Below, one piece after another: positions 17,259 to 64,000 of a stretch of 64,000 bases of DNA (position 1 is the first letter of the stretch; each line of letters begins with the position of its first letter). A program made the translations under genes and the position numbers. Source of the stretch: a virus; the IMG/VR virus record IMGVR_UViG_3300047160_010630, positions 44,001 to 108,000 of that record; one strand, given 5' to 3'. The notes under the pieces were generated by a model. It searched no databases. It saw only the letters and a list, made by a program, of their open reading frames with translations, and was not told where the DNA came from.

Positions 17259-17299
17259 GCGGTCTGTTCCTTTCCTCGTTCGTGTGTGATCATCACAGT

Positions 17300-17335
17300 A
17301 CACGCCCCCGCTTGCTGCTGCAAGCGGGGGCGTGT
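17300..17335 (-). terminator. 16-bp hairpin overlapping a promoter (TTGCAG-N17-TACTGT on -)
   Basis: ACACGCCCCCGCTTGC-N4-GCAAGCGGGGGCGTGT. Confidence 0.7.
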
Positions 17336-17346
17336 TCGTGTTTGGG

Positions 17347-17604
17347 TCAGCTGCCGTTACCGGCGTTGCGTCGCTCGGTGTCGTCACCCTGCGAGGCCGG
17401 AGGGTTGCCGAAGACCCGGTTGGCCTGGCGCTGGGCCTGGATCTGGTTGGAGGTGTGGACGGCGTCGTTCTCGGCCTTGGCGAAGTCGTCGGCCCCGCCG
17501 ACGGACAGGTAGTCCTGCCGGTCGGCGGCGGCTCCCTGGTTCATCCGCTGCTCGAAGGCACCGGAGCCCGGGTCCGGGTCACTGTTCCTCTTGAAGAGAC
17601 CCAT
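17347..17604 (-). CDS. Small hydrophilic hypothetical protein
   Basis: AAGGAA leader; MGLFKRNSDP... Confidence 0.6.
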   Translation of the reverse strand: MGLFKRNSDPDPGSGAFEQRMNQGAAADRQDYLSVGGADDFAKAENDAVHTSNQIQAQRQANRVFGNPPASQGDDTERRNAGNGS

Positions 17605-17644
17605 TTCCTTGTTCCTTTCTGCGCTGGGTAGAATCTCCACCCTG

Positions 17645-17727
17645 TGTGCTCGGAGGGAGTCGAACCCTCACGTCTCTTGGACGCCGGTACTTGAAGCCGG
17701 TGCGTCTGCCTGTTTCGCCACGAGCAC
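17645..17727 (-). tRNA. tRNA-Leu(CAA)
   Basis: Acceptor GTGCTCG/CGAGCAC, loop TT-CAA-GT, long variable arm, GGTTCGACTCC; no CCA. Confidence 0.88.
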
Positions 17728-17731
17728 TCAG

Positions 17732-17812
17732 CAGAGGGTAGAGGTAACGCTCCCCGAGCCTTTCAGCTCCCCAGATTTTCAAGACCTGTTTGCACCTTGT
17801 GCGGTACCCTCT
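17732..17812 (-). tRNA. tRNA-Ser(TGA) with atypical D and T loops
   Basis: Acceptor AGAGGGT/ACCCTCT, G discriminator, stem CAGGT/ATCTG, loop CT-TGA-AA, long variable arm; T-loop lacks TTCG. Confidence 0.7.
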
Positions 17813-18165
17813 ATATGTGTGACTGTTTTACCGTGATGGTCACTTGAATTGAGTATTACTACACGATTTTCTGGAACTATATAAACTGCCAGAAGATCTG
17901 ATTTATTTCCGTCGAACTTTATTACTCTTGTCTCATTTGTATTGTGTCGTACTGATTTAAGCTGTACGGCATAGCTCTTTTTGGATCCTTTGTAGGAGGT
18001 GCTTTTAACCTCTACTCTGGAAAGGATTCCTTCTTTAACTACTACCATGTCAAAGTTCGCATTACCAAAAACTGGTAGATAAACATCGTAACCTTGACGC
18101 ACGAATTCATGTGCTACGGCTGCTTCTCCGAGTCTACCCTTCTTTACTGTGTTCACGCGTCTCAT
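17779..18165 (-). CDS. PD-(D/E)XK homing-type endonuclease (I-Ssp6803I-like), free-standing in the tRNA cluster
   Basis: KGRLGEAAV...GYDVYLP...FDMVV...RVEVKST; strongly AT-rich; likely leaderless GTG start at 18156. Confidence 0.85.
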   Translation of the reverse strand: MRRVNTVKKGRLGEAAVAHEFVRQGYDVYLPVFGNANFDMVVVKEGILSRVEVKSTSYKGSKKSYAVQLKSVRHNTNETRVIKFDGNKSDLLAVYIVPENRVVILNSSDHHGKTVTHIEGTAQGANRS

Positions 18166-18177
18166 AATACAATAAAG

Positions 18178-18248
18178 AACGGACGACGGGAATCGAACCC
18201 GCACCTCCAGCGTGGAAGGCTGGGGCACTGCCGTTATGCAACGTCCGC
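18178..18248 (-). tRNA. tRNA-Gly(TCC)
   Basis: CCAGC-CTTCCAC-GCTGG anticodon arm; GGTTCGATTCC. Confidence 0.92.
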
Positions 18249-18249
18249 G

Positions 18250-18332
18250 TGGAAGTGGAGGGAATTGAACCCCCGAGCCCGAAGGATCCGGTTTACAGCC
18301 GGACGCAACCAGCCAACAGTTGCCTCACTTCC
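18250..18332 (-). tRNA. tRNA-Tyr(GTA)
   Basis: TCCGG-CTGTAAA-CCGGA; variable arm; GGTTCAATTCC. Confidence 0.92.
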
Positions 18333-18337
18333 AACAG

Positions 18338-18411
18338 GGTGACCTACGGGAATCGAACCCGCAACCTTCGGTGCCACAGACCGACGCTCTGCCAATTGAG
18401 CTAAGGCCACC
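18338..18411 (-). tRNA. tRNA-His(GTG) with encoded G-1
   Basis: TCGGT-CTGTGGC-ACCGA; G-1:C73. Confidence 0.93.
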
Positions 18412-18438
18412 ATTGCCGGTGTACTGCATGAATCGTAG

Positions 18439-18512
18439 TGGCGGGGACAGGATTTGAACCTGCGACCTACGGGTTATGAGCCCGCCGAGCTACCGAGCTG
18501 CTCCACCCCGCT
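18439..18512 (-). tRNA. Initiator tRNA-fMet(CAT)
   Basis: 1:72 mismatch; GGG/CCC anticodon stem; CTCATAA loop. Confidence 0.93.
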
Positions 18513-18536
18513 CCTACGAGCTTAGCAGGTCGCCGC

Positions 18537-18566
18537 GCCCGGCGCCCGGAGTTCCGGGCGCCGGGC
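18537..18566 (-). terminator. GC hairpin after the 18576 gene, followed by a TGC-TAAGCT -10 for the tRNA operon
   Basis: GCCCGGCGCCCGGA-GT-TCCGGGCGCCGGGC. Confidence 0.6.
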
Positions 18567-18575
18567 CACCGGCTG

Positions 18576-19190: not shown

Positions 19191-19244
19191 CCTGTTCCTC
19201 TTTCTTCTCTTCCTGGTTCCTGCCCTCGTGGGCCGGTGAGAAGA

Positions 19245-19273
19245 ACACTACGCAGGACCTGACCCGCCGTCAA
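19245..19273 (-). promoter_or_regulatory. SigA/HrdB-type promoter
   Basis: TTGACG-N17-TAGTGT. Confidence 0.7.
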
Positions 19274-19328
19274 CCCCCGACCGGGAACCGCCCCCGGGCC
19301 GTGTGCCCGGAGGCGGTGCGCTCTTCCT

Positions 19329-20009
19329 TTAGAAGGGGAGGCCGCCGTTGTCGAACGGCAGCGCCGGGGGAGCGGTGTCCTGGGGCGCCTCGTCCTGCGG
19401 CTCCTCCTCCTCCTCCTCGGCCTTGTCCTCGTCCAGGACGTCGTACTTCTGCGGAGGCTCGTACTCGGCCTCTTCCTCTTCCTCTTCCTCCTTGGTGGAG
19501 TCCGCGACCGGCTGCGGCTGGGCGACCGGCTGCGGCTGGACAGCGGGCTGGGGCTGTGCCATCATCGGCTGCGGGGAAGCTGACGGGGCGCCAGAAGCCG
19601 TGCCGGTTCCGGGAGCCTTCACGTTCTTGAGCTTGCTACGGGTCTGCCCCTGCCACTCGTCCTCCTCGACCTCGATCTGGCAGGCCTTGCCGATCAGGTC
19701 GTTGGCGACCTTCTCCATGGAGGGATCGGTCCCGAAGTAGGCGCCGTTCAGGCCGAGTGCCGCCATGTGCCGGAAGAAGAATCCGAGCGCGATGGCGCTG
19801 TCCGGGCTGATGGTGAAGGTGTTGGGCATCGGCTTGCCCTGGAACGGACCCGAGGTGATCTTGAAGACGGCCTTGATCTGGTCCTTGCCGTTGCTGTTCT
19901 TGGTGTGGCTGGCCTTGGTGATGACCGCGTCGTAGGTCCCCTTGGGGATCGTGACGAACCCGGCGTCCTCGGCGGCCTTCTGGAGATCCTTCCAGGAGTA
20001 CTGCGCCAT
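19329..20009 (-). CDS. DUF669-type ssDNA-binding protein
   Basis: IPKGTYDAVI...LIGKACQIEV...WQGQTRSKLK; acidic tail ending LPF; next to the Sak4-like gene. Confidence 0.8.
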   Translation of the reverse strand: MAQYSWKDLQKAAEDAGFVTIPKGTYDAVITKASHTKNSNGKDQIKAVFKITSGPFQGKPMPNTFTISPDSAIALGFFFRHMAALGLNGAYFGTDPSMEKVANDLIGKACQIEVEEDEWQGQTRSKLKNVKAPGTGTASGAPSASPQPMMAQPQPAVQPQPVAQPQPVADSTKEEEEEEEAEYEPPQKYDVLDEDKAEEEEEEPQDEAPQDTAPPALPFDNGGLPF

Positions 20010-25901: not shown

Positions 25902-26007
25902 CGGCTTCCTCTTCCTTGCGCACGAAGGCGACGGCAGATCCGTTTCCGGACCCGTTGCCGCCGCCTTCGCTCTGATCGATCGGCAGGCTCAACCTACCAT
26001 GTGCGGA

Positions 26008-26388: not shown

Positions 26389-26389
26389 G

Positions 26390-27517
26390 TCAGTTGTCCT
26401 TCCCCAGGATCTTGTCGAACTTCGCGAAGTTGCTTCGGAACACCTTCAGGGTCTTCTGGAGCTGGTCGCGCTCCTTCTTGACCTCCTCCAGCTCGGCCCG
26501 CAGCGCGGCCAGCTCGGAGTCCTTGGCGTCCAGGCTGGCCTGGACGTCGGCCTGGACCTGCTCCTCCAGCGTGCGGAGCATGGCCAGCAGGCTCGTCACG
26601 TTGGTGATGTGCTCGCCGAGCGACAGGCCGTCGGGGTCGACGGCGACCTCGTCGGCGGCGGCGGCGGGCGTCTCGGTCAGCTCGGCAACCACCTTCTCGC
26701 GCGCCTGCTCGGCCCGGGAGGCCAGGTAGTACTTGGTGTAGAACTGGGACGACCCGAACACGATCAGGTCGGACATTGAGCTTTCCGCCAGGTGCTCCAC
26801 GGTCTTGCGGGTCCGGTTGCGGGTGGCGCGCGGGTCGGCCTCCTGGGCCTTCTCGATGAAGTAGTAGACCGACTCGGGGCCCTTCGCCTCCTTCGCGACC
26901 GTCAGGACCAGGTCGGCCAGGTCGTCGTCCGAGAGCTTGCCCGGCGGGAGGTCCACCCGGCTGCCGTCGTCCTTGATGCGGAAGGCGTGCGCCCGGAACT
27001 CGTGGGAGGCGCGGATCTGCGGGAGGGTGCTGATGGTGCGGCACCCCGGCTCCCGGCAGGGGTAGGGCGTGCCGGTGCTGGTCTCGGACATGCGGTTCTC
27101 TTCCTTTTCCTCGGGTTCCTGCGTGTTCTTGCTGGTGACCGTCAGTCCGGCCCAGTGCTTGGCGACCCACCACAGGGCCTGGCCCCCACGGATGGCCCGG
27201 CGACGGCAGACCAGGGTCTTCGTCACCCGGTGGTACTCGTTGACGGCGAGCTTGATCTCCTGGATCTTCTCCCTGTCCTCGCGGTAGCTGTCCTTCGACT
27301 CCGGCCAGATGTCGGAGATGACCGAGTTGACGGCGCCCTGCCACATGTAGCCGGGTCGGCCGTCCATGTAGGGCTGGGTGGCCTTGGCCTTGTTGACGCG
27401 GTTCAGCACGGCGAACCAGACGAACTGGGCCGTGGCCGCGATGCCTTCCGGACTGTCGTCCAGGAAGTCGGGCACGGAGCCCGCGTCGATGTGTGCTGTG
27501 TCCTTGAAGCTTGGCAT
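26390..27517 (-). CDS. Hypothetical protein with a C2H2-like zinc finger and a C-terminal coiled coil
   Basis: YPCREPGC...SHEFRAH; ELAALRAELEEVKKERDQLQ; promoter TTGACA-N17-TACAGT. Confidence 0.7.
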   Translation of the reverse strand: MPSFKDTAHIDAGSVPDFLDDSPEGIAATAQFVWFAVLNRVNKAKATQPYMDGRPGYMWQGAVNSVISDIWPESKDSYREDREKIQEIKLAVNEYHRVTKTLVCRRRAIRGGQALWWVAKHWAGLTVTSKNTQEPEEKEENRMSETSTGTPYPCREPGCRTISTLPQIRASHEFRAHAFRIKDDGSRVDLPPGKLSDDDLADLVLTVAKEAKGPESVYYFIEKAQEADPRATRNRTRKTVEHLAESSMSDLIVFGSSQFYTKYYLASRAEQAREKVVAELTETPAAAADEVAVDPDGLSLGEHITNVTSLLAMLRTLEEQVQADVQASLDAKDSELAALRAELEEVKKERDQLQKTLKVFRSNFAKFDKILGKDN

Positions 27518-27604
27518 GGTGTTCTTCCTTGTTCCTCGTTCCTGATGCATCCGACTGTACCGGGGTGCTGAATGACTGTCAACACCCCGGACTGTCGTGG
27601 TGGA

Positions 27605-28210: not shown

Positions 28211-28331
28211 AAGGATGTGCTTCCTCTCGTCTGTTCCTCGTTCCTATGCTAGCAGATCTTGGTCGAACTACTAGGCCTGGACGAGTACAGCATGAAGGAC
28301 CCGACCCCTTGGTGTCAACGGGCCGGGTCCT

Positions 28332-28610: not shown

Positions 28611-28862
28611 CTACCCCAGGTAGTGGGCAATCAGCTCGTCCGTCGTCAGCTGCTCCAGCTTGCCGATCTCCTGGGACATCTTGTAGTCGGCGACGAACGC
28701 GAGGATGTCCTTGAGGGGGATCTCGATGTAGCCTTGGTCCCTGCTGTCCCGGAGCTTGTCGAAGTCGTTCTCGTAGATCCGCAGTCCGTTGCTGCGGTCC
28801 CCGTGGGTGACGTAGGTGACGCCCGACTCCGGGCCCTCGAACATGTGCATGATCTTCCTCAT
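28611..28862 (-). CDS. Hypothetical protein
   Basis: Coupled ORF. Confidence 0.65.
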   Translation of the reverse strand: MRKIMHMFEGPESGVTYVTHGDRSNGLRIYENDFDKLRDSRDQGYIEIPLKDILAFVADYKMSQEIGKLEQLTTDELIAHYLG

Positions 28863-29179
28863 TCCTCGGTAGGGGTATGCAGGGAGGCCTGGATCGCGCG
28901 GACCTCGTCCATGTCCTTGGACGCGTCGCCGACGTGGACCAGGTGGTGGCCCAGACGGCGGTGCTCCCCGGCCTGGATCGCGTCCAGCATGCGCTGGCCG
29001 ATCAGCTGGCCGTGCTCGTCCACGACGTGGAAGTGGCCGTGGACGTCCGGCTTCACCAGCTCGGCGGGGACGACCAGCCAGTCCTTGTCGCGCAGGGGCT
29101 GGACCTCGCTGTCGGCGAGCTGGAACGGCGTGCCGATGGGGCCCTTGTCGCCCCGCATGAAGTACCAGCGCTTGTCCAT
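28859..29179 (-). CDS. Hypothetical protein
   Basis: Promoter TTGACA-N18-TAGAGT and AGGAAGAAGGAA leader. Confidence 0.7.
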   Translation of the reverse strand: MDKRWYFMRGDKGPIGTPFQLADSEVQPLRDKDWLVVPAELVKPDVHGHFHVVDEHGQLIGQRMLDAIQAGEHRRLGHHLVHVGDASKDMDEVRAIQASLHTPTEE

Positions 29180-29243
29180 CGGTTCCTTCTTCCTGCTGTT
29201 CGGTGCCTCACTCTAGGAAGGGGCACGCACAGCTGTCAAGGCG

Positions 29244-29441: not shown

Positions 29442-29596
29442 CGGCGCGTTGTCCTTATTGTCTGTAGGTGCTGTGCGACAGGACGCTACCACGGGAGATC
29501 GCCTCGACCAAGAAGACCTTGGGGCTGGACGCCGGTCCACCGGAACTGATACTGTGTGAGCACGCCGGAGGAACCGGCCAGGAAGAAGGAAACAGC

Positions 29597-30049: not shown

Positions 30050-30080
30050 CCACCCGCTCCACGACCAGGAAGAAGGAACG

Positions 30081-31375: not shown

Positions 31376-31921
31376 ATGGGCGACCCCCTGAACCTGACCC
31401 GCGCCATGCGCACGGCGTACGACTTCATCCAGGCCAACGGCTACGCGACCGGCGCGCATCCGGCCGTGTCCGAACCGACGGCCCAGGCACTGCGCAACCG
31501 TGGCCTGGTCGAGATGTACCACGTCCCGACCGGTCACAAGAACACCACGGCCTGGGTGGTCATCCCGCTCGGCAAGCCGAAGCCGAAGAAGGTGGAGCTG
31601 CCGCACATCACGGTGGCTGCCCCTGCCACGGTGAGCAAGGTGCTCGGACTCGGCAAGGACGCCAGCGACAAGCCGCTGGTGCGTGCCCGCAGTGTCAGAG
31701 AACTCAGCAGCAACAGCTCGCAGTGCGGCGGGTACGCCGTGGCGACGTCCAGCACCAGGGGCGAGGTGATCGTCTCCTATGTCACCCCGGACGACATGAA
31801 CCTGGCCACCGTCCTGCGGGTGCGTCCCGAGATGCTGAAGCGCTACGCCGAGGTGCTGCGCGCGGCGCAGTACGAGGTCCGGGAGGACGCGATGTACAGC
31901 GTCCTGTTCGTCAGCAAGTAG
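31376..31921 (+). CDS. Hypothetical protein
   Basis: GAAAGGA RBS. Confidence 0.7.
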   Translation: MGDPLNLTRAMRTAYDFIQANGYATGAHPAVSEPTAQALRNRGLVEMYHVPTGHKNTTAWVVIPLGKPKPKKVELPHITVAAPATVSKVLGLGKDASDKPLVRARSVRELSSNSSQCGGYAVATSSTRGEVIVSYVTPDDMNLATVLRVRPEMLKRYAEVLRAAQYEVREDAMYSVLFVSK

Positions 31922-31934
31922 GAAGGAGGAACAG

Positions 31935-32675
31935 ATGAGCGACGGCACCTCGCTCGGGGACCGTATGAAGGCGTACGAACGGCCGTACCGGCAGCTTCTT
32001 CCGCGTCGTACGTACACGATCATTCGGGTGGACGGTCGGGCCTTCCACAGCCTGCTGAAGCATGCCAAGCGGCCGTACGACGCCGACGTCATGGCGTGCA
32101 TGGACTACGTCGCCCTGAGCCTGTGTGAGGAGGTCCAGGGCGCCCGGCTGGCCTTCGTGCAGTCCGACGAGGTCAGTGTTCTGCTCACGGACTTCGAGAG
32201 CACCGGCACCCAGCCGTGGTTCGGCGGGGTCCTGGCCAAGATGGTGTCCGTCAGCGCCTCCATCGCGACGCTGGAGTTCAACGACTTCGCCGGTGACCTC
32301 GGGCTGGACCTGCCGGACCTGGCCCAGTTCGACTCGCGGGTCTTCACCGTCCCGGACCCGGTGGAGGTGGCGAACTCCTTCATCTGGCGCCAGCAGGACG
32401 CCACCCGCAACAGCATCCTCATGGCCGGGCAGTCCGTGTTCTCCCGCAAGGAACTCCAGGGGAAGAACACGAACGAGATCCAGGAGATGCTGTGGCAGCA
32501 GCACGGCATCAACTGGAACGACTACCCGGAAGGCTTCAAGCGCGGCCGGGTGTGCATCCGCCAGGAGGACGCTCCGACCGGCTGGGCAGTCGTGGCAGCT
32601 CCGGTCTTCAAGGCGGAGCCGGGCACGTTCCTGGCGGACGTGATCCCGCCGATGCCGTCCCTGCACGGCGAGTAA
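31935..32675 (+). CDS. Thg1-like tRNA(His) guanylyltransferase / 3'-5' RNA polymerase
   Basis: DRMKAYE, IIRVDGRAFH, QSDEVS, FDSRVF, WRQQDATRNSI, GINWND...FKRG. Confidence 0.93.
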   Translation: MSDGTSLGDRMKAYERPYRQLLPRRTYTIIRVDGRAFHSLLKHAKRPYDADVMACMDYVALSLCEEVQGARLAFVQSDEVSVLLTDFESTGTQPWFGGVLAKMVSVSASIATLEFNDFAGDLGLDLPDLAQFDSRVFTVPDPVEVANSFIWRQQDATRNSILMAGQSVFSRKELQGKNTNEIQEMLWQQHGINWNDYPEGFKRGRVCIRQEDAPTGWAVVAAPVFKAEPGTFLADVIPPMPSLHGE

Positions 32676-32715: not shown

Positions 32716-32791
32716 GTTGACGACTGATGGTGGGTCATGTATTGTTTTCCTTGTCAGCAGGAAACAGGAACCAGGAATGAAGGAGGCCGAC

Positions 32792-34020: not shown

Positions 34021-34042
34021 CACCGAAACAGGAAGAAGGAAC

Positions 34043-34737: not shown

Positions 34738-34873
34738 CCCCCACTGCTGCCCGGCGGCGCGTCTGCGGTGTGCCGCCGGGCCTCCCGCTCGGTGAAGGTC
34801 ATCCTTGCTCGTCGGGGGGGACGTGATCACACCGGGCGGGATAGGATTCAGGAAACAGGAAGAAGGAATTACG

Positions 34874-35101
34874 ATGAAGCCCGGCAAGTACTTCAGCATC
34901 CTCACGTTCATCTGGGGCCGGACGCACTACATCGTCACCCGAGACTTCACGGTGCGCGTGGACGTGTCGCGCAGTGACCTGTTCGACGACGTCAAGCGGG
35001 ACGCCTCGGAGTTTCTTTACACGAAGACGGGGATCCGCCCCGACCCGGAGTACATGATCGTCCTGTTCCACAGCTTCGAGTACGACGAGGCCCTGTCCTG
35101 A
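34874..35101 (+). CDS. Hypothetical protein
   Basis: AGGAA leader. Confidence 0.6.
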   Translation: MKPGKYFSILTFIWGRTHYIVTRDFTVRVDVSRSDLFDDVKRDASEFLYTKTGIRPDPEYMIVLFHSFEYDEALS

Positions 35102-35118
35102 GGAAAGAGGAAGAGGAA

Positions 35119-36190: not shown

Positions 36191-36579
36191 ACGCGGCCCT
36201 CGCCTTCTACCTCGCCGGACTCGCTGGCTGCCTCGTAGGCATGCTCCGGATGGACAAGGCGCAGCGCCGCCGGACGTGCGTGGTAGCCGTCATCTGGCCG
36301 GTCGTGGCCGTTCCGGCAGTAGGCTGGTTCCTCGTCTGCCTTCCTGGTAAGGTTTACACCGCGACCAGGAAGAGGAAGGAGAACTGGACCATGAGACTTC
36401 CCATCGCGTACAAGGGCCGCACCGAGAACGGCTGGCACCGGTACTACGCCCAGCGTGCGTTCACGAACATCCGGACGGGCAGTTCGTACACCGTCCACAT
36501 CGACAAGTCCCGTTTCCTGGCCTGGTGCGAGGCCTGGTGGGTGTGGATCAACCTGCGCATCACCGGAGACGAGATCTGA
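36187..36579 (+). CDS. Membrane protein, with a possible internal start at 36391
   Basis: Two TM segments; internal AGGAAGAGGAAGGAG leader before an in-frame ATG. Confidence 0.55.
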   Translation: MNAALAFYLAGLAGCLVGMLRMDKAQRRRTCVVAVIWPVVAVPAVGWFLVCLPGKVYTATRKRKENWTMRLPIAYKGRTENGWHRYYAQRAFTNIRTGSSYTVHIDKSRFLAWCEAWWVWINLRITGDEI

Positions 36580-37647: not shown

Positions 37648-38001
37648 ATGACTGCGGAACCGTACGACGGCATGTGCATTCTTGTCTGGCCCGCCGGACC
37701 GGCGACCCCGGCCAGCCCGATGGCCTGGAAGGACGTGCAGATCTTCGACGCCGTCACCGGCCTCGCGCTGGTGACCGTGCTCGGCTTGGAGATCTGTGTC
37801 GGCAACGCGCAGGGCTGGACCCCGTACGTGCCGGTCACCGTGCGGATCACCGCGCTGGCCGGTGACGACGGGAAGATCCTGGGCCACGGCCAGCCCATCG
37901 TGTGGGAGGATGCCGGAACCGGGGACCCTGTCCCCAAGAAGGGCGAGTACCTGTACCTGGTCGCCGAGATGCGGGTGGGGGCCGCCACGACCGAGGAATG
38001 A
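37648..38001 (+). CDS. Hypothetical protein (possible paralog of 45666-46043)
   Basis: GMCILVWP...WKDVQIF versus GCVIISWP...WSDVRYF. Confidence 0.65.
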   Translation: MTAEPYDGMCILVWPAGPATPASPMAWKDVQIFDAVTGLALVTVLGLEICVGNAQGWTPYVPVTVRITALAGDDGKILGHGQPIVWEDAGTGDPVPKKGEYLYLVAEMRVGAATTEE

Positions 38002-38011
38002 GGAAGAGAGA

Positions 38012-38533: not shown

Positions 38534-38853
38534 CCGACATGCCGGACGAGGAGATCGTCTGGGAGGCGTGGGAACGCATCCCCGACGACCTGGTGCTGTG
38601 GTCGCACGGGGACGAGCTGGCGGCCGGGCACTTCACCGACCGCACCTACGACTGGTGGACCTCGCAGCTGGGGCACCACGAGCGCGGACCCGGCGGCTGC
38701 AAGGACTGCGGGGACGTGTGCCTGCTGGCCGTCTTCCACGAGGCGGTGGCCATCTCGGTCATCCGCGAACTGCTGCGGCAAGGCCTCTTGAACATCGACA
38801 CCGGAACCCGCTACACTTCAACTACCAATCAGGAAGAAGGAACTGAATCATGA
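38530..38853 (+). CDS. Hypothetical protein
   Basis: Coupled ORF. Confidence 0.6.
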   Translation: MTDMPDEEIVWEAWERIPDDLVLWSHGDELAAGHFTDRTYDWWTSQLGHHERGPGGCKDCGDVCLLAVFHEAVAISVIRELLRQGLLNIDTGTRYTSTTNQEEGTES

Positions 38854-42859: not shown

Positions 42860-42878
42860 CCTCAGAGAGGAAAGAGGA

Positions 42879-43166
42879 ATGACCGACCCGATGGACGACC
42901 CCGAGACGATCGCCCGCACCGAGCAGAAGATCATGAGCATGGGTACGGACCAGATGAAGGCGTTCGCCCTCAGCATCGCCGAGGCCTTCCCCGGGCTCGA
43001 CGACGAGGAGCGCGCGGCGTGGCTGGCCGACATCGACGCCGTGCCGGACACGTACTGGGCGCCGGACAGCCTGCTGCACTCCTTCAAGGTGCTCCAGGAC
43101 AGCGGCTGGAACATGGCCCTCGCCGTCCGGGCACTCGCCCGGGAGCAGGAGGAGAACCATGACTGA
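42879..43166 (+). CDS. Hypothetical protein
   Basis: AGGAAAGAGGAA leader. Confidence 0.65.
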   Translation: MTDPMDDPETIARTEQKIMSMGTDQMKAFALSIAEAFPGLDDEERAAWLADIDAVPDTYWAPDSLLHSFKVLQDSGWNMALAVRALAREQEENHD

Positions 43167-43299: not shown

Positions 43300-43368
43300 G
43301 GCCTTGACCCGCCGGGCGGGGAGGGGTAGTGTCTTCCCCAGGAACGAGGAACGAGGGAAGGACACACC

Positions 43369-46043: not shown

Positions 46044-46136
46044 CATAGAACTCCGCAGTCGCCGGTCGCAGTTCGATGATGCATGCGACTGGCGGCTACG
46101 GGAATCGACCACACCAGGAAGAAGGAAGAAGAAAGC

Positions 46137-53107: not shown

Positions 53108-53646
53108 ATCGTTAGGAAAGGAAACTTACTTCCACAGGCTGTGGACGGACCTGTGGGTTATACGTATAATCGAGGTGTTCTCGCAGGTCAAGGGGATGAG
53201 AGTCCCCTGGGCCGAAGAGAATTCTGAGGGTAAAATTTTATCGGGAAAAAATTTTTGGCGAAGCTTCGTCACGTAGCATTGGCGGGATCCCGCCACGCAC
53301 GGGCGGGCAGGCGGACGCGCAGGCCGGCCGGTTCGGATACGAACCTTGGTACGAATCGGGTACGAACAGTTCGGAGACGATTGTTCGTGGACAACTCAAT
53401 AGTGGACAAAGCGGACATAGAGGATCCTTCCTGGATCAAGAGGGCAAACGGGCCGAGAGGGCAAACCGGACATCCTGGGGCATGGCAGGCGTGATGAAGC
53501 TGTGATGAAGCCTGCCAGCGGGGAAGTCGGACGGAAGTAAACGCCAAAAGCCCAGGTCAGAGGCTATAGACACGCATCCGCCGGTGGTGCTTTACTGGAC
53601 CCCTCGCCAAGCGGCGGGACAGGAACCAGGAAGCGAGGGACACGCG

Positions 53647-54362: not shown

Positions 54363-54541
54363 GAACGTGCGAGGATGCACGAGGGAAGCGACCAACGCCG
54401 TACCCATGTTCATGGGTACGATATGGATGTGCGCACGCTGCTCGCTGGAACACGGAATCGCGCCGGTGGAAAAGCCGGTCGAAAACCCGTACATTCACCT
54501 CACGCTCAACGACGTGTGGGGCGAGGAAAAGGAAACAGGAA

Positions 54542-55629: not shown

Positions 55630-55691
55630 GTTCGGGAAAAGGAAAGAGGAATTCCGGCCGGGCGAATGGATCAACGGAGAGGAAACAGGAA

Positions 55692-56262: not shown

Positions 56263-56367
56263 TAACAGGTCACGGTCCGGTAACGGTTGCGGGGAGGGGG
56301 CTTGACGGCCCCCTCCCCCTACGGAAGAGTCGGGTCTGTCAGCAGGAACGAGGAAACGGGAGTGATC

Positions 56368-56538: not shown

Positions 56539-56652
56539 ACTCCCGTCCCCACGGAATCATCACAGCACCGTTATGGAACTGTGATGTTTCCCGGCCAGAC
56601 GGTAGGGCATAATCAGGGTGTCAGCAGGAACCAGGAACGAGAGGCAGCGATC

Positions 56653-57636: not shown

Positions 57637-57661
57637 AATCCGAGAGAAAAGGAAAAAGGAA

Positions 57662-57877: not shown

Positions 57878-57879
57878 TC

Positions 57880-58059: not shown

Positions 58060-58120
58060 CCACTTCCCCGCCCCTGCAAGGGGCCCACAACAGCCCAGGA
58101 ACCAGGAAGAAGGAAAAGAC

Positions 58121-58593: not shown

Positions 58594-58665
58594 ACAAAAG
58601 GCGGGGGCAGGAATGCCCCCGCCCCATTCCCCGCAATTCAGGAATTCAGGAAAAGGAGAAAAGAA

Positions 58666-59055: not shown

Positions 59056-59148
59056 AGTGACGTACGTCACACGGCCCGGGGAGGTTTAACCCTCCCCGGG
59101 CCCGGGTAGGTAGCCGGTAGGAAGTCAGGAACCAGGAAGGTAGCGATC

Positions 59149-59643: not shown

Positions 59644-60000
59644 CAGTGAGTGAGTGCACTACTCGGGCACAGCCCGTAGCCGAACGACACTGAGAGTGAA
59701 GGGCAAGGTCACAGTTCGATAACAGTTAGATAGCACACAGACTGTTGACAGAGTCAACGGTCTGTGTGCAGACGTTTGTATCTTTAGTACGTATACGTCC
59801 TTTCCGGTCGCGCGCGCAGCTCCCCCCGTTTATTTTCACACCCCCGCACACCATTCCAGTTTTACTCCCCATAATATTACTCCGCCGCCTCCGGCCTCCT
59901 CCAGTTTTACGCTCCCTAGTACTACGCACCTTAGTGTTGACACCGCGTCACCCGTCCCCCTAAGCTGGTCCCACCAACCAGGAACGAGGAAAGGAACACC

Positions 60001-60147
60001 ATGAACGACGAGCAGCGCAAGGGCACCGGCCTGATCATCCGCCACGAGAACGGCGCGTACACCATCCGCATCTGGGCGAGCTGGGGTTTCCTGGCCTTCG
60101 TGGCCCTGGCCGTGGCCGCCCTGATCACGGCCGCGATCTTCTCCTAG
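60001..60147 (+). CDS. Small C-terminally anchored membrane protein
   Basis: Promoter TTGACA-N17-TAAGCT (59937-59965) and AGGAA leader. Confidence 0.6.
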   Translation: MNDEQRKGTGLIIRHENGAYTIRIWASWGFLAFVALAVAALITAAIFS

Positions 60148-60162
60148 GAAAAGGAACCCCTG

Positions 60163-60588
60163 ATGAAGCGCAACCTGAACGAGCCGGTCTTCCTCTACAT
60201 TTCCGCGTCCGTCGTCCAGACCTGGACGCTGGACGAGTACCGCCGCTGCCTGGCCGTGGACGACGGCTGGTCGCGCTGGCTGAACAAGGGGCCGTTCGGC
60301 CTCCAGGTCGTCGCGCCGGGCGAGACGGAGGCGACGGGCTTCACCGTGGTCTCGCGCCCGCTCCCCGGCAGCGCCACGGTGGACGGCGTTGTCTTCGAGA
60401 AGCGGCGGGCCACGCTCCAGCCCCTCGGGTACGACGCCGTCAGGTGGGCCGACAACGGCGGGTACCCCCGGCCGGTCGAGTTCGAGTACTGGGTGCCGGA
60501 CCTGGACGTCATGCTGGACCTGGACCTGGTGCCGTACCAGTGGGTTGACGGCGAGCTGGTCATCACGCTACAGTTCCCCGCGAACTGA
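60163..60588 (+). CDS. Hypothetical protein
   Basis: AGGAAAAGGAA leader. Confidence 0.65.
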   Translation: MKRNLNEPVFLYISASVVQTWTLDEYRRCLAVDDGWSRWLNKGPFGLQVVAPGETEATGFTVVSRPLPGSATVDGVVFEKRRATLQPLGYDAVRWADNGGYPRPVEFEYWVPDLDVMLDLDLVPYQWVDGELVITLQFPAN

Positions 60589-60621
60589 CACACCGACAGA
60601 CACAGGAAGAAGGAACCGGTC

Positions 60622-61406: not shown

Positions 61407-61825
61407 TGAGTGAGTCGCTGGACGAGAAGTCCGACCGGCTGTACCGCGAGCAGGGCGCCGCCAGGGCGGGCAGCTGCCCGTTCTGCGCGATCGTGGCCGG
61501 GCTGGCTCCGGTGACCCTGGTCCACGCGTGGCCCGACGCGCTGGCGTTCGTGCCGCTGAACCCGGTGGTGGAGGGCCACACGCTGGTCGTCCCGAAGCTG
61601 CACGTGCAGGACTTCGCGTCCGACCCGGAGACCTCCGCGATGACGATGCGCCGGGCCGCCGAGCTGATGCGCTGGACGCCGCGTGCGATGAACGTGATCA
61701 CGTCCAAGGGGCGTGCGGCGACCCAGTCGGTGTTCCACCTGCATCTGCACCTGGTTCCCCGGGTGGAGGACGACGGCCTGGCGCTGCCGTGGTATTCCGG
61801 CAAGCACAGGAAGAGGGAGGTCTGA
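61406..61825 (+). CDS. HIT-family nucleotide hydrolase
   Basis: CPFCAIV, PLNPVVEGHTLVVPKLH, QSVFHLHLHLVPR. Confidence 0.92.
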   Translation: MSESLDEKSDRLYREQGAARAGSCPFCAIVAGLAPVTLVHAWPDALAFVPLNPVVEGHTLVVPKLHVQDFASDPETSAMTMRRAAELMRWTPRAMNVITSKGRAATQSVFHLHLHLVPRVEDDGLALPWYSGKHRKREV

Positions 61826-62154
61826 TGGACGAGATTCTGCGGTTGCCCGAGTTTGTTACCGCTGACGGTACACACCGTGAGCTGCTGGCTGAGGTCAAGC
61901 GCCGTCGTACAACCTGGCCGTCCGCGTTGCCGTTGCAGCAGGCCGCCGACACGTTGCGGGCGGCGGCTCCGGACATCACCGGTCCGCTGGCCGGACTGGC
62001 GGATCCGGTGGCGGACTGGCTGGACGAGACGGCGAACACGCTGTCCTGGCTGGCGCCGTTCCGGGAGCACGAGGGCGGCTTCGACATGTGGGAGCAGGCG
62101 ATGCGGGTGGCCTCCATCGTCAACGGGACGCTCAAGGAAGGAGACCGGAGATGA
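61825..62154 (+). CDS. Hypothetical protein
   Basis: GGGAGG RBS; coupled. Confidence 0.6.
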   Translation: MDEILRLPEFVTADGTHRELLAEVKRRRTTWPSALPLQQAADTLRAAAPDITGPLAGLADPVADWLDETANTLSWLAPFREHEGGFDMWEQAMRVASIVNGTLKEGDRR

Positions 62155-62450
62155 GTGACGAACGCCCGATCCCCGAGGCCCTGGTCCGCTACTTCGAGCA
62201 GCGGGCCGCCCAGCGCCGGGCCGAGGTCTCCGCGCTGTTCGAGCGCCTCACGGAGCGTGAGCGGCGGCTGGTGAAAGAGGCGGCGGTGATGGGCTGGGTG
62301 CAGGGGATGCGGCACAGCGACCTGGCGTACCCGGGCGGCCGGTACGCGCTGGCTGTGGTGCTGGACGGCTGCCTGGCGCACGAGGATCTGTATCCGGAGA
62401 TCACCGGGTACGTGGAGCCCGAGGACGAGTTGGAGGAGTCCGATGAGTGA
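62151..62450 (+). CDS. Hypothetical protein
   Basis: LTERERRLVKEAAVMGWVQG. Confidence 0.6.
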   Translation: MSDERPIPEALVRYFEQRAAQRRAEVSALFERLTERERRLVKEAAVMGWVQGMRHSDLAYPGGRYALAVVLDGCLAHEDLYPEITGYVEPEDELEESDE

Positions 62451-62697
62451 TCCCCTGACCCGGCAGCAGCGCGAGACCATCCGCCAGCGTCTGGTCCACT
62501 ACCGGAAGACCCACGCGCACATGAACGGCTTCGCGTGTTGTTCTGCACATGCCAGTGCGGACGACGTGCCGGTGCTGCTGGCCGAGATCGAGCGGTTGTA
62601 CAAGCTGCTGGCCGCCCAGTGCACCGGGTGCTACCCGAACCCGCACGACCACGAGGAGCATTGCCCGTACTCCCGCATCCCCGAGGAGAACCCGTGA
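62443..62697 (+). CDS. Hypothetical protein
   Basis: ADDVPVLLAEIERL (Ead-like) segment. Confidence 0.6.
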   Translation: MSDPLTRQQRETIRQRLVHYRKTHAHMNGFACCSAHASADDVPVLLAEIERLYKLLAAQCTGCYPNPHDHEEHCPYSRIPEENP

Positions 62698-62948
62698 TCC
62701 ACAAGGTCCACATCTACACGTCCACCGCCTGCCAGCACGAGCTGCACGAGAACTGCCGCCGGGTGTGCAAGTACTGCGAGAAGCCGAACCAGTGCGTCTG
62801 CGCGTGCCACACGACGAGCGGGGTCTACCGCAGTCTTCCTCCCCGAGCCCGGTGGCACGCCATCCCGTACGAGGATGGTACAATGCCCGCAAAAGCTGTT
62901 CGGGCGGGATCGGAGGCGCCGGTGGCGTCCCGGGACGAGGAGGACACC

Positions 62949-63143
62949 ATGGCGTACGGCGAGGACGAGCGCGAGGTCGAGGGCGGCGAGGGCCGCGAGG
63001 GCCTGCGCAACACCAACGTCAACGTCAACGACGTCGATGTCGACAACGCGAACACCAGCGTGAACGCGAACGACAACCGCAACGTCCAGGTCCAGAAGGC
63101 CGTGGACCACGACTGCGACGGCGATTGCGACTGCGAGGACTGA
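62949..63143 (+). CDS. Small acidic Asn/Val-alternating protein with a Cys/Asp tail
   Basis: GAGGAGG RBS; TGG-TACAAT -10 at about 62876-62884. Confidence 0.65.
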   Translation: MAYGEDEREVEGGEGREGLRNTNVNVNDVDVDNANTSVNANDNRNVQVQKAVDHDCDGDCDCED

Positions 63144-63258
63144 GCGTCGCACCCTGGCCAGTGCCGTCGGACATGCGGGTCCGGCGGCACTGTTGCGTCC
63201 GGCCCGAAGTCTCTGGTAGTCTTTCAGTACCGAGACACACCAAGGAAAGGAAGAGGAA

Positions 63259-63486
63259 ATGAGGATAATGACCGCACAGGAGATGGACCCGGAGGACCTG
63301 GAGGCCGCGATCAACGACTCCCTGGTCAACGCGGAGGCGTGGCGGGGCGGGCACCCAGGCGTGGTGCTGCACTTCTCGGTGTTCGAGGTGATGCGCGAGC
63401 GCGGCCTGCTGGGCAAGGGCCTCTGCCTGACGTACAAGGGCATGGAGGCCGCCAAGGCGGCCCAGCGCGCGTACTGGGGCGATTGA
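63259..63486 (+). CDS. Hypothetical protein
   Basis: AAGGAAAGGAAGAGGAA leader. Confidence 0.65.
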   Translation: MRIMTAQEMDPEDLEAAINDSLVNAEAWRGGHPGVVLHFSVFEVMRERGLLGKGLCLTYKGMEAAKAAQRAYWGD

Positions 63487-63564
63487 GCTGGACTCCCGCT
63501 GCCGACACCTGATAGGGTGTCATCGACGGAACGAGCCGTACCGAACCAGGAAAGGAAGAGAACC

Positions 63565-64000
63565 GTGGCACTGAACCCCGACACCGGCGTGTACGAACCA
63601 CGTCCCTACAACCAGCGCTTCGGGCGGACGCTGAACCGCAAGGGCGTGGCCATGTCCACGATGCTGATGGACACCGTCGAGGAGCGCCTGCGCACCGAGC
63701 CGCTGCACCGCATCCCGGTCAAGGACGTCGCCCGGCGGGTGGGGACGTCGCCCGCGAACTTCTACCAGTACTTCGCGTCGCTGGACGACGTGGTCGGCGC
63801 CCTGCTGGACCGGCTGAGCGCGTACGCGAAGGCCGAGCAGCAGGTGCAGTTCTCGGAGCTGACGGCCGCGAACCTCTACAGCGTCTCCGGCGCGTTCCTG
63901 GTCGACCCGGACACCGACCTGGCCGACGCGCTGGGCGAGCGGGTCGTCGAGACGCTGGAGTTCCTGGAGAAGAACGGCGAGCTGCTGGCCGCCGCGTCGG
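63565..64000 (+). CDS. TetR-family HTH regulator (partial, runs off the window)
   Basis: IPVKDVARRVGTSPANFYQYFASLDDV; promoter TGGACT-N18-TAGGGT. Confidence 0.8.
   Translation, partial: MALNPDTGVYEPRPYNQRFGRTLNRKGVAMSTMLMDTVEERLRTEPLHRIPVKDVARRVGTSPANFYQYFASLDDVVGALLDRLSAYAKAEQQVQFSELTAANLYSVSGAFLVDPDTDLADALGERVVETLEFLEKNGELLAAAS

What the first reader, a model, noticed from the sequence alone, without database searches (positions are those of the whole stretch)
17265..63565. Tandem (AGGAAnn)2-4 leader with 7-nt periodicity on about 30 non-structural genes
Seen: purine-rich arrays precede start codons on both strands. Examples: CAGGAACCAGGAAGAAGGAA (about 58096), AGGAAACAGGAAGAAGGAA (34850), AGGAAACAGGAACCAGGAA (32759), AGGAACGAGGAACAAGGAA (- strand, about 27525-27545), and similar arrays near 17270, 19200, 28230, 29190, 29580, 30066, 34030, 34382, 35101, 36366, 38830, 43340, 46115, 53620, 54524, 55680, 56343, 56625, 57648, 58640, 59119, 59979, 60603, 63242 and 63547. 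I saw no such arrays before structural genes, which use ordinary RBSs. At three promoters (32753, 56338, 56620) the predicted transcript starts with identical GTCAGCAGGAA. Inference: a phage-wide post-transcriptional regulon (RNA-binding protein array, translation enhancer, or stability tag protecting early mRNAs from shut-off), comparable in concept to start-associated sequences in mycobacteriophages. Mundane alternative: stacked partial matches to the actinobacterial anti-SD.
Basis: partly seen in the sequence, partly recalled or inferred. Interest (0 to 1): 0.72.

Follow-up and report, generated by a model that had tools for sequence, protein, structure and literature searches.

The report
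Tandem AGGAA leaders on phage early genes
An uncultured high-GC actinobacterial phage places two to four copies of a weak ribosome-binding-like word (AGGAA, mostly 7 bases apart) in the short leaders of about 45 non-structural genes and none of its virion genes; relatives share the trait and candidate hosts lack it, so it is a real leader signal in the style of mycobacteriophage start-associated sequences, with its mechanism still untested.

Summary
AGGAANNAGGAA occurs 33 times in the window against 0.03 expected, and 39 times in the 108-kb record. A 7-nt spacing dominates (33 leader pairs against 4.9 if the units were placed at random).

- **Position:** 45 of 51 arrays precede a coding-like start in the sense orientation.
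- **Gene class:** 47 of 125 non-structural genes carry at least 2 units, and 0 of 48 genes in the structural block do.
- **Specificity:** five actinobacterial genomes, Streptomyces included, have 0-3 copies each, the same as a reversed-pattern control. Five distant cultured phages have none.
- **Relatives:** six uncultured relatives have 2-15 exact doublets. These usually lie in a promoter-leader cassette (-35, extended -10, about 10-16 nt, doublet), often followed by a separate canonical ribosome-binding site.

Array leaders are U-poor and weakly structured. One unit pairs only weakly with the 16S tail, and 16S pairing does not explain the 7-nt phase.

My best reading (0.5) is a cis-acting polypurine leader that recruits ribosomes and protects short early mRNAs. 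A sequence-specific RNA-binding factor remains a live rival (0.25).

This is a new variant of the start-associated-sequence and polypurine-stabiliser kind. Earlier scan notes describe heptad repeats at starts in other genomes, but not this motif.

The parts
17267..17276 (-). array, 2 units, spacing 5; start GTG 17258 (185 aa)
17605..17616 (-). array, 2 units, spacing 7, abuts ATG 17604; lies 27 nt downstream of tRNA-Leu
19210..19221 (-). array, 2 units, spacing 7, plus a third unit at 19195; ATG 19190 (204 aa)
19245..19273 (-). promoter-like TTGACG-17-TAGTGT, 23 nt upstream of the 19221 array
25906..25916 (-). array, 2 units, spacing 6; ATG 25901 (DNA polymerase I, 591 aa)
27525..27543 (-). 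array, 3 units, spacings 7 and 7; ATG 27517 (375 aa); the multi-unit leader is kept in 5 orthologs at 25-34% protein identity
27554..27582 (-). promoter-like TTGACA-17-TACAGT, 10 nt upstream of the 27543 array
28234..28245 (-). array, 2 units, spacing 7, plus a third unit at 28221; ATG 28210 (201 aa); the leader is nearly identical in relative L001 although the proteins are 35% identical
28855..28866 (-). array, 2 units, spacing 7, spacer TG gives a possible upstream TGA stop (frame not checked); start ATG 28862 or 28850
29183..29194 (-). array, 2 units, spacing 7; ATG 29179 (106 aa)
29210..29239 (-). promoter-like TTGACA-18-TAGAGT, 15 nt upstream of the 29194 array
29580..29591 (+). array, 2 units, spacing 7; GTG 29597 or ATG 29603
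30067..30078 (+). array, 2 units, spacing 7; ATG 30081 (79 aa); internal junction, no promoter-like site
31920..31931 (+). array, 2 units, spacing 7 (the only GG spacer); ATG 31935 (Thg1-like, 246 aa); the upstream TAG stop overlaps unit 1
32717..32745 (+). promoter-like TTGACG-17-TATTGT, followed by GTCAGC and the array
32759..32777 (+). array, 3 units, spacings 7 and 7; ATG 32777, or ATG 32792 behind a canonical AAGGAGG site
34030..34041 (+). array, 2 units, spacing 7; ATG 34043
34850..34868 (+). array, 3 units, spacings 7 and 7; ATG 34874
35101..35118 (+). array, 3 units, spacings 7 and 6, abuts ATG 35119; the upstream TGA stop overlaps unit 1
37994..38005 (+). array, 2 units, spacing 7, spacer TG gives a possible upstream TGA stop (frame not checked); ATG 38012 (173 aa)
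38788..38817 (+). promoter-like TTGAAC-18-TACACT, 13 nt upstream of the 38831 array
38831..38842 (+). array, 2 units, spacing 7; ATG 38850
42868..42879 (+). array, 2 units, spacing 7; ATG 42879 or 42891
43304..43332 (+). promoter-like TTGACC-17-TAGTGT, 7 nt upstream of the 43340 array
43340..43351 (+). array, 2 units, spacing 7, lying 17 nt before ATG 43369, with further purine-rich sequence between
46116..46127 (+). array, 2 units, spacing 7; ATG 46137
53621..53632 (+). array, 2 units, spacing 7, lying 14 nt before ATG 53647, with a GAGGGA site between
54524..54541 (+). array, 3 units, spacings 6 and 7, abuts ATG 54542
55640..55691 (+). two doublets 40 nt apart (55640-55651 and 55680-55691); the second abuts ATG 55692
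56344..56355 (+). array, 2 units, spacing 7, preceded by GTCAGC; GTG 56362 or ATG 56369 behind a GGGAG site
56626..56637 (+). array, 2 units, spacing 7, preceded by CATAAT-6 nt-GTCAGC; ATG 56653 (327 aa)
57650..57661 (+). array, 2 units, spacing 7, abuts ATG 57662
58097..58115 (+). array, 3 units, spacings 7 and 7; ATG 58121
58640..58652 (+). array, 2 units, spacing 8, followed by an AAGGAG site; ATG 58666
59119..59138 (+). array, 3 units, spacings 8 and 7; ATG 59149
59937..59966 (+). promoter-like TTGACA-18-TAAGCT, 13 nt upstream of the 59980 array
59980..59996 (+). array, 3 units, spacings 7 and 5; ATG 60001
60146..60156 (+). array, 2 units, spacing 6; ATG 60163
60545..60574 (+). promoter-like TTGACG-18-TACAGT, 29 nt upstream of the 60604 array
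60604..60615 (+). array, 2 units, spacing 7; ATG 60622
63243..63258 (+). array, 3 units, spacings 5 and 6, abuts ATG 63259
63548..63557 (+). array, 2 units, spacing 5; GTG 63565
19473..19489 (-). unit-like run inside coding sequence (Glu-rich); not start-associated, counted as background
27101..27120 (-). unit-like run inside the 375-aa ORF; not start-associated, counted as background
36367..36377 (+). array, 2 units, spacing 6, inside the ORF my caller chose; possible internal start at ATG 36391 behind a -10-like TAAGGT
53114..53123 (+). two abutting units just after a stop codon, with no start codon next to them

Best explanation
The arrays are a lineage-specific, cis-acting leader module of the phage's non-structural (early or middle) genes.

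- Each array is 2-4 copies of a weak Shine-Dalgarno-like pentamer whose AGGA core forms 4 base pairs with the 16S 3' tail.
- The array makes up most of a very short, A-rich, U-poor and poorly structured 5' leader or intercistronic spacer.
- In about 45% of cases it begins roughly 6-25 nt after a sigma-70-type -10 box, so it should lie within the first 25 or so nucleotides of the transcript. The remaining arrays fill gaps between genes of one operon.

Inferred mechanism:
- One unit sits in the normal ribosome-binding window and serves as the Shine-Dalgarno site. This holds for 36 of 48 array genes.
- The extra units act as standby or enhancer sites for 30S subunits. Where they are 5'-proximal, they may also shield the mRNA from 5'-end-dependent decay.
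- The result would be strong, coupling-independent initiation of early genes on host ribosomes.

Status of the steps:
- Shown: position, strand, gene class, phage specificity, conservation, low structure, weak 16S pairing.
- Inferred: transcript starts, ribosome binding, and any effect on translation or stability.
- Unexplained: the preference for a 7-nt phase.
For: - 45 of 51 arrays precede a coding-like start within -4 to +35 nt, against 20% for random positions.
- 36 of 48 array genes have a unit whose 5' A lies at -14 to -8.
- Only 5 of 47 array genes have any GGAG in the ribosome-binding window, so the unit itself must serve as the site there.
- Initiation regions of array genes fold at -9.0 kcal/mol, against about -15 for other genes (p = 4e-8 and 4e-10). 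Their upstream 30 nt are 40% A and 6% T.
- The best 16S pairing in the window is somewhat stronger for array genes (-9.5) than for structural genes (-6.7).
- Arrays fill 39 of 59 non-structural gaps of 16 nt or more, but only 8 of 63 overlapping or tightly coupled junctions.
- Arrays also occur at internal junctions, sometimes overlapping the upstream stop codon.
- Multi-unit leaders persist at orthologous promoter-proximal genes down to 25-34% protein identity, while unit number and spacing drift (7, 10, 11, 4-6). This fits semi-independent units.
- Isolated triple arrays precede what appears, from similar first residues, to be the same gene in unrelated viral contigs of 45% and 59% GC, which suggests a general ribosome-level effect.
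- Experimental precedent: the mycobacterial katG polypurine GGAAGGAA, 4 nt before the start, raises expression more than threefold and stabilises the mRNA (PMC2358910).
Against: - A single unit pairs weakly with the 16S tail (-4.3 kcal/mol, against -9.5 for GGAGG).
- The family's commonest doublet, with a CC spacer, reaches only -5.6.
- Doublets spaced 7 nt apart pair no better than other spacings, and the spacer bases are not enriched for G.
- In relative G010, 14 of 15 doublets share one 12-mer (spacer C then C or G) and are followed by a separate canonical site. That looks more like a discrete recognition site than generic purine richness.
- The strong 7-nt phase in this phage (33 against 4.9 expected) has no ribosomal explanation.
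- Transcript starts are inferred from consensus matches only.
Confidence: 0.5

Rival explanations
1. The arrays are binding sites for a sequence-specific trans-acting factor. This could be a multimeric RNA-binding protein or a sequence-specific endoribonuclease, encoded by the phage or the host, that reads AGGAA(C) units about 7 nt apart. It would co-regulate some 45 early mRNAs, for example shutting them off at the switch to late genes, as T4 RegA and RegB do, or protecting them during host shut-off.
For: - The phase is strict (33 pairs at 7 nt against 4.9 expected) and 16S pairing does not explain it.
- A near-invariant 12-mer occupies a fixed place in 14 of 15 cassettes of relative G010, upstream of a separate canonical ribosome-binding site. 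Similar cassettes occur in G008 and G011.
- The arrays are completely absent from structural genes, which use GGAG-type sites instead.
- The motif is absent from candidate host genomes and from five distant cultured relatives.
- The features closely parallel Cluster K start-associated sequences, for which a bound factor has been proposed but never tested (PMC3203893; PMC12699233).
Against: - The phage has no recognisable S1, cold-shock, S21 or sigma-70 domain, and about 30 scanned proteins gave no RNA-binding domain.
- Unit number and spacing are not conserved between orthologous leaders.
- The array's position relative to the start codon ranges from 0 to 35 nt.
- Early genes must be expressed before any phage protein exists, so a phage factor could act only later.
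Confidence: 0.25
2. The arrays act on DNA. They would be the initial transcribed or downstream region of the early promoters and tune promoter escape, as in phage T5 early promoters. Alternatively they would be asymmetric operator or 'stoperator' sites for a repressor that blocks RNA polymerase.
For: - 11 of 51 arrays lie within 28 nt of a strong -35/-10 match, against 0.44% of random positions and 1 of 124 other genes.
- 17 of 51 follow a TANNNT box, against 4.7% at random.
- In relatives the doublet is an integral, fixed part of a conserved -35 / extended -10 cassette.
- Orientation follows the direction of transcription, as it does for Cluster A stoperators (cited in PMC3203893).
Against: - About half of the arrays have no promoter-like element upstream. 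They abut or overlap start codons, or overlap the stop codon of the upstream gene.
- The distance from the -10 box varies from 0 to 24 nt.
- Direct repeats 7 bp apart fall on different faces of the DNA helix.
- The association with ATG starts and with the ribosome-binding window points to RNA.
Confidence: 0.12
3. The arrays are a by-product with no function of their own. Either slippage produced heptamer micro-repeats like the start-proximal heptad repeats seen in other bacteria, or partial anti-Shine-Dalgarno matches accumulated by chance in purine-rich spacers.
For: - Heptad repeats next to start codons are widespread in other genomes (earlier scan notes).
- Unrelated AGGAATK-type heptamer microsatellites exist in other viral contigs.
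- The unit does contain the AGGA core.
Against: - Each array has only 2-4 units, and the spacer bases differ between units of one array, which is not what slippage produces.
- Composition-preserving shuffles give 0.04 doublets against 33 observed.
- The arrays are conserved at orthologous genes across relatives with 25-70% protein identity.
- One leader is nearly identical between phages whose encoded proteins are 35% identical.
- The arrays are wholly excluded from structural-gene gaps of equal size.
Confidence: 0.08

Closest known systems
Start-associated sequences (SAS) of Cluster K mycobacteriophages (Pope et al. 2011, PMC3203893)
   Same: - A conserved asymmetric motif lies a few nucleotides upstream of many start codons.
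- It is found only at non-structural genes and in one orientation.
- It shows a strong ATG bias and contains a Shine-Dalgarno-like core.
- It is essentially absent from the host genome and conserved across the phage group.
- Its function had still not been tested experimentally in 2025 (PMC12699233).
   Different: - SAS is a single 13-bp word, GGGATAGGAGCCC, often with 17-bp inverted repeats upstream. That word is absent here (1 match with 2 mismatches against 2.2 expected).
- The present element is 2-4 copies of a 5-nt unit with variable spacers.
- It is often 5'-proximal in a promoter cassette and can lie up to 35 nt from the start.
- It belongs to an unrelated phage lineage.
Polypurine 5' stabilisers: STAB-SD of B. 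thuringiensis cryIIIA, the phage SP82 early-RNA polypurine stabiliser, and the mycobacterial katG polypurine GGAAGGAA (PMC2358910 and references B10, B11 in it)
   Same: - A purine-rich, Shine-Dalgarno-like sequence lies in a leader, sometimes upstream of and separate from the working ribosome-binding site.
- The katG element is itself a tandem GGAA repeat in an actinobacterium. It raises expression and mRNA half-life.
- One example comes from a phage early transcript.
   Different: - The known cases are single genes with strong 16S complementarity.
- Here a weak unit is repeated in phase on about 45 genes of one temporal class.
- No stabilising effect has been measured.
T4 RegB and RegA control of early mRNAs
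   Same: A particular flavour of ribosome-binding site marks one temporal class of phage mRNAs, and a phage protein reads it to shut that class off.
   Different: No RegB- or RegA-like protein has been identified here. The motif differs, and nothing shows that the arrays are cleaved or bound.
Downstream (initial transcribed) region of phage T5 early promoters such as N25
   Same: A purine-rich sequence at about +1 to +20 is conserved among strong early promoters of one phage.
   Different: About half of the arrays here are not next to a promoter, and they track start codons instead.
Start-proximal heptanucleotide direct repeats in bacteria (TAACTGA-type, cyanobacterial STRR), as raised by earlier scan notes
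   Same: A 7-nt period lies directly upstream of start codons.
   Different: Those are long runs of identical units that vary in copy number. Here there are 2-4 units with differing spacers, conserved across relatives.

Membership tests
Cluster K start-associated sequences (SAS) | 13-bp consensus GGGATAGGAGCCC with at most 2 mismatches | tested here: not met
   One match with 2 mismatches, inside a tRNA gene, against 2.2 expected by chance.
Cluster K start-associated sequences (SAS) | Located 3-7 bp upstream of start codons, in one orientation | tested here: inconclusive
   Orientation is met, since 45 of 51 arrays are in sense before a start. The distance is broader than for SAS: the 5' A of the last unit lies between -4 and -32.
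Cluster K start-associated sequences (SAS) | Restricted to non-structural genes; ATG bias; absent from the host genome | tested here: met
   47 of 125 non-structural genes against 0 of 48 structural. ATG starts in 41 of 47 array genes against 56 of 110. Candidate host-lineage genomes hold 0-3 copies per 5.5-10.9 Mb, equal to the control. The host itself is inferred only from Ro60 similarity.
Cluster K start-associated sequences (SAS) | Extended SAS: 17-bp imperfect inverted repeats just upstream in about half of the sites | not tested
   I ran no dedicated inverted-repeat scan. The listed upstream sequences show promoter boxes, not shared inverted repeats.
STAB-SD / polypurine 5' stabiliser | Polypurine sequence with good complementarity to the 16S rRNA 3' end | tested here: inconclusive
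   A unit gives -4.3 kcal/mol and doublets -5.6 to -9.2, against -15.8 for GAAAGGAGG. The 16S tail sequence was confirmed in candidate host-lineage genomes.
STAB-SD / polypurine 5' stabiliser | Near the mRNA 5' end, upstream of and separate from the working ribosome-binding site | tested here: inconclusive
   Met for most cassettes in relatives G010 and G011 and for about 12 genes here, judged by predicted promoters. In most genes of this phage the array overlaps the ribosome-binding window. Transcript starts have not been mapped.
STAB-SD / polypurine 5' stabiliser | Increases mRNA half-life through ribosome binding | not testable with these tools
   This needs rifampicin-chase and 30S-binding assays.
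Canonical Shine-Dalgarno site | Complementary to the anti-SD and placed about 5-10 nt before the start | tested here: met
   A unit lies at -14 to -8 in 36 of 48 array genes. The AGGA core forms 4 base pairs. This accounts for one unit per array, not for the extra units or the phase.
Heptanucleotide microsatellite (slippage) repeats | Runs of identical 7-nt units | tested here: not met
   The arrays have 2-4 units and the spacers differ within an array.
Cluster A stoperators | 13-bp asymmetric repressor-binding sites, a cognate repressor, and sites in both genome arms including structural genes | not tested
   I searched for neither the stoperator consensus nor a repressor gene. The one relevant observation is that the arrays are absent from the structural block.

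The most novel reading that the evidence does not exclude
The AGGAA(C) heptad arrays are the operator set of a phage-family-specific post-transcriptional regulon. A multimeric RNA-binding protein, or a RegB-like sequence-specific endoribonuclease, would read units 7 nt apart on about 45 early mRNAs and switch the whole class off, or protect it, at the early-to-late transition. This would be a second, independently evolved SAS-type system. Its simple repeat grammar should make the mechanism easier to work out than for Cluster K.
Probability: 0.22. Interest if true: 0.8.

Novelty: new variant of a known kind. Interest (0 to 1): 0.55.

Why it matters
Start-associated sequences in mycobacteriophages have been known since 2011 and remain unexplained. 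This is a second, unrelated phage lineage with the same genome-level behaviour:
- The motif occurs only at non-structural genes.
- It is ATG-biased.
- Candidate host genomes lack it.

The grammar is much simpler here: a 5-nt unit repeated 2-4 times, mostly 7 nt apart. It also has a defined place in a conserved promoter-leader cassette.

That makes several questions directly testable with small reporter constructs:
- Is such a motif only an enhanced ribosome-binding site?
- Does it stabilise the 5' end of the mRNA?
- Does a factor read it?

The cassettes may also be useful as compact strong expression modules for high-GC actinobacteria.

The limits are that the phage is uncultured, the host is only inferred, and nothing functional has been measured.

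Tried and rejected
1. **16S pairing as the cause of the 7-nt phase.** The 16S tail has a near-repeat 7 nt apart, which made this attractive. I rejected it because duplex energies are no better at 7 nt than at 5, 8 or 9, and GG spacers are rare.
2. **Close relatives in the cultured-phage collection.** There was no DNA match. Protein matches reach at most 43% identity, and five such phages have no doublets.
3. **Pattern scans of viral contigs for triple arrays.** These mostly returned unrelated heptamer microsatellites or coding repeats. An over-constrained pattern gave only 7 hits.
4. **Single-protein searches for kin of the 375-aa gene.** Nothing was found in viral or metagenome contigs.
The closest relatives (82% and 74% nuclease identity) could therefore not be fetched, and I could not compare leader substitution rates with synonymous rates.
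7. **Targeted searches for S21, S1, cold-shock and sigma-70 domains** in the phage found nothing significant. Pfam scans of about 30 non-structural proteins mostly returned nothing.
8. **Rfam** found only tRNAs.
9. **A phage small RNA complementary to the arrays.** A narrow check of record 9601-11260 (+ strand) found a single complementary pentamer and no run of them.
10. **The SAS consensus** is absent.

Full report
**What the window is.**
The window is bases 44001-108000 of a single 108-kb linear virus record. CheckV rates the record 88% complete and its GC content is about 65%. The cultured-phage collection has no close relative.

My codon-bias gene caller gives 173 genes, laid out as follows:
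- A left arm of small plus-strand genes (record 1-19 kb).
- A structural block (record about 20-60.7 kb, which is window 1-16.7 kb).
- A minus-strand replication module (window 16.7-29.4 kb). It holds DNA polymerase I, an SNF2 helicase, a PD-(D/E)XK nuclease and an AAA_24 protein.
- A long plus-strand arm of mostly unknown genes. It includes a PrimPol, an SF1 helicase, a DUF927 primase-helicase and a Thg1-like enzyme.

The phage's TROVE/Ro60-like gene is most similar (55%) to Streptomyces genes. The host is therefore plausibly Streptomyces or a neighbouring actinobacterium, but this is an inference.

Yes.
- The exact doublet AGGAANNAGGAA occurs 33 times in the window against 0.03 expected, and 39 times in the record.
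- Between consecutive units, a 7-nt step (39) far exceeds steps of 6 (13), 5 (7), 8 (4) and 9 (2).
- Shuffling each 37-nt leader while keeping its composition gives 0.04 doublets against 33 observed.
- Keeping the observed number of units per leader but placing them at random gives 4.9 +/- 2.1 pairs at 7 nt against 33.
- An independent repeat finder recovers the same families (families D2, D4 and D6).
- The record holds 51 arrays of at least two units, 39 of them in the window.
- 45 of the 51 are followed within -4 to +35 nt, on the same strand, by a start codon that opens a coding-like frame. Random positions do so 20% of the time.

**Which genes carry arrays?**
- 47 of 125 non-structural genes have at least two units within 32 nt upstream. 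None of the 48 genes in the structural block does (Fisher p = 1.5e-8).
- The split is not an effect of gap size. Among genes with an upstream gap of 16 nt or more, 39 of 59 non-structural genes have arrays and 0 of 26 structural genes do.
- Among overlapping or tightly coupled non-structural junctions, only 8 of 63 have arrays.
- Structural genes use GGAG or AGGAG (13 of 48) and never the AGGAA unit in the ribosome-binding window. Array genes almost never use GGAG (5 of 47).
- Array genes start with ATG in 41 of 47 cases. Genes without a unit do so in 56 of 110.

**Is it phage-specific?**
Five actinobacterial genomes of 5.5-10.9 Mb, reached through the Ro60 hits and including two Streptomyces, contain 0-3 doublets each. 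A reversed-pattern control gives the same number. The phage is therefore enriched more than a thousand-fold per base. These genomes carry the expected 16S 3' tail.

**Relatives.**
- The nuclease gene has hundreds of homologs, many on contigs of roughly 100-112 kb. An alignment of them recovered 80 viral loci.
- The unit in tandem is the top short-range repeated pentamer in four loci (L256 in record G001, L259, L260 and L273). It is weaker in several others and absent from many loci of similar relatedness.
- Whole-record counts of the exact doublet are 6, 13, 2, 15 and 9 in five relatives, with 0 for the control in each. G001 has 4.
- Five cultured distant relatives, 746 kb in all, have none.
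- This phage, with 39, is the extreme member of a patchy family trait.

**Conservation at orthologous genes.**
- The region is syntenic with G001.
- The 375-aa gene (window 26390-27517, minus strand) has orthologs at only 25-34% identity in five relatives. All of them keep at least two units a similar distance after a -10-like box. The spacings are 7, 10, 11, 7+5 and 7+7.
- The leader of the 201-aa gene (start at 28210) is almost identical in G001 although the proteins are 35% identical.
- Internal, translationally coupled genes lack arrays in every relative.
- Having several units is therefore under selection. Exact spacing is looser outside this phage.

**Link to promoters.**
- 11 of 51 arrays lie within 28 nt downstream of a strong match to TTGAC, a 16-19-nt spacer and TANNNT. 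The rate is 0.44% at random positions and 1 of 124 at other gene starts.
- 17 of 51 follow a TANNNT box, against 4.7% at random. Adding non-canonical -10 boxes brings the total to roughly 22-24.
- The consensus scanner finds the best of these sites independently.
- In the complete relative G010, 14 of 15 doublets are one 12-mer (spacer C followed by C or G) in a highly conserved cassette. The cassette is a G-rich TTTACA -35, about 17 nt, an extended -10, 6-17 nt that usually include CAG, the doublet, then 2-5 nt later a separate GGAG or GGAGG site and the start codon. G011 and G008 show the same layout.
- With a transcript start about 7 nt after the -10 box, the doublet would occupy roughly +5 to +20 of the mRNA. 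This is inferred, not mapped.
- The other half of the arrays have no promoter-like site. They sit at internal junctions, abut the start codon, or overlap the upstream stop codon.

**Physical properties.**
- Initiation regions (-35 to +25) of array genes fold at a mean of -9.0 kcal/mol, against about -15 for both other classes.
- Their upstream 30 nt are 40% A, 33% G, 21% C and 6% T.
- One unit pairs with the 16S tail through AGGA only (-4.3 kcal/mol). Doublets give -5.6 with CC, AC or CA spacers, about -9 with one G, and -15.8 with GG.
- The mean at a 7-nt period (-8.4) is no better than at 5 (-10.3), 8 (-8.8) or 9 (-8.3).
- Observed spacers include a G in 20 of 33 doublets, against about 18 expected on my assumption of roughly one-third G. 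GG occurs only once.
- The unit is thus a weak ribosome-binding site, and 16S pairing does not explain the phase.

**Interpretation.**
The simplest account that fits everything shown is a cis-acting polypurine leader.
- One unit serves as the ribosome-binding site. It lies at -14 to -8 in 36 of 48 array genes.
- The extra units keep the leader unstructured and offer further weak 30S contacts.
- Where they are 5'-proximal, they may protect against 5'-dependent decay.

There is experimental precedent in an actinobacterium for a tandem GGAA polypurine that raises expression and stabilises mRNA (katG; PMC2358910). The same paper cites the STAB-SD element and a polypurine stabiliser from an early RNA of phage SP82.

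I put this reading at 0.5, because three facts fit a discrete recognition site better:
- The strict 7-nt phase in this phage.
- The near-invariant 12-mer followed by a separate canonical site in relatives.
- The preference for a non-pairing C after the unit.

A sequence-specific RNA-binding factor or nuclease therefore stays at 0.25. No candidate protein was found. A DNA-level role in promoter escape or as an operator gets 0.12, because half the arrays are not next to a promoter. A neutral by-product gets 0.08, given the conservation and the class restriction.

**Comparison with what is known.**
The closest known system is the start-associated sequence of Cluster K mycobacteriophages. The following points are taken from PMC3203893:
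- It is restricted to non-structural genes.
- It lies 3-7 bp before starts.
- 80 of 93 sites precede ATG.
- It occurs in one orientation.
- It is essentially absent from host genomes.
- It contains AGGAG.
- Its function is unknown.

A 2025 survey still calls for functional tests (PMC12699233). The element here is not a member of that family. The 13-mer is absent, the architecture is a tandem short unit, and the lineage is unrelated. It behaves the same way at genome level, so I class it as a new variant of a known kind.

**Limits.**
- Gene starts come from my own caller.
- Transcript starts are predicted only.
- The host is inferred.
- Nothing functional has been measured.

Noticed in passing
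window 17644-18512 (-): A cluster of five tRNA genes: Leu(CAA), Gly(UCC), Tyr(GUA), His(GUG) and Met(CAU). It lies between the structural block and the replication module. An AGGAA doublet and a small ORF follow directly after tRNA-Leu.
   Followed up: partly
window 31935-32675 (+): A Thg1-like tRNA-His guanylyltransferase or 3'-5' polymerase (Pfam Thg1 1.7e-24 plus Thg1C). The same genome carries its own tRNA-His and a Ro60/TROVE gene, which suggests an RNA repair or maturation module.
   Followed up: no
L126:11241-12911 (record coordinates, outside the window): A TROVE/Ro60-like gene (556 aa) whose best genomic matches, at about 55% identity, are Streptomyces species. It is my only clue to the host. 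A two-unit AGGAA array precedes it too.
   Followed up: partly
G010 (IMG/VR relative, 111.9 kb, terminal repeats); loci L341-L355: About 14 copies of a highly conserved early promoter cassette: a G-rich TTTACA -35, about 17 nt, an extended -10, the doublet, then a canonical ribosome-binding site. It may be usable as a compact expression module and as the family's promoter consensus.
   Followed up: partly
window 35914-36109 (+): A 12-nt tandem repeat of about 16 copies inside the 208-aa gene 35564-36190, giving a four-residue protein repeat. No Pfam match.
   Followed up: no
L082, L121 and L123 (unrelated viral contigs): What appears to be the same gene (similar first residues) is preceded by a three-unit AGGAA array with a 7-nt period, both in a 45%-GC contig and in 59-60%-GC contigs. 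Such arrays therefore arise or persist outside this phage family.
   Followed up: no
window 17300-17335 (+): A strong 16-bp GC-rich hairpin followed by a T-rich tail, which is terminator-like. It lies at the boundary between the convergent structural and minus-strand modules.
   Followed up: no
L043, L103, L057, L084 and others: AGGAATK-type heptamer microsatellites of 3-6 identical units, often next to short hairpins, occur in unrelated viral contigs. They are a different phenomenon from the arrays studied here.
   Followed up: partly
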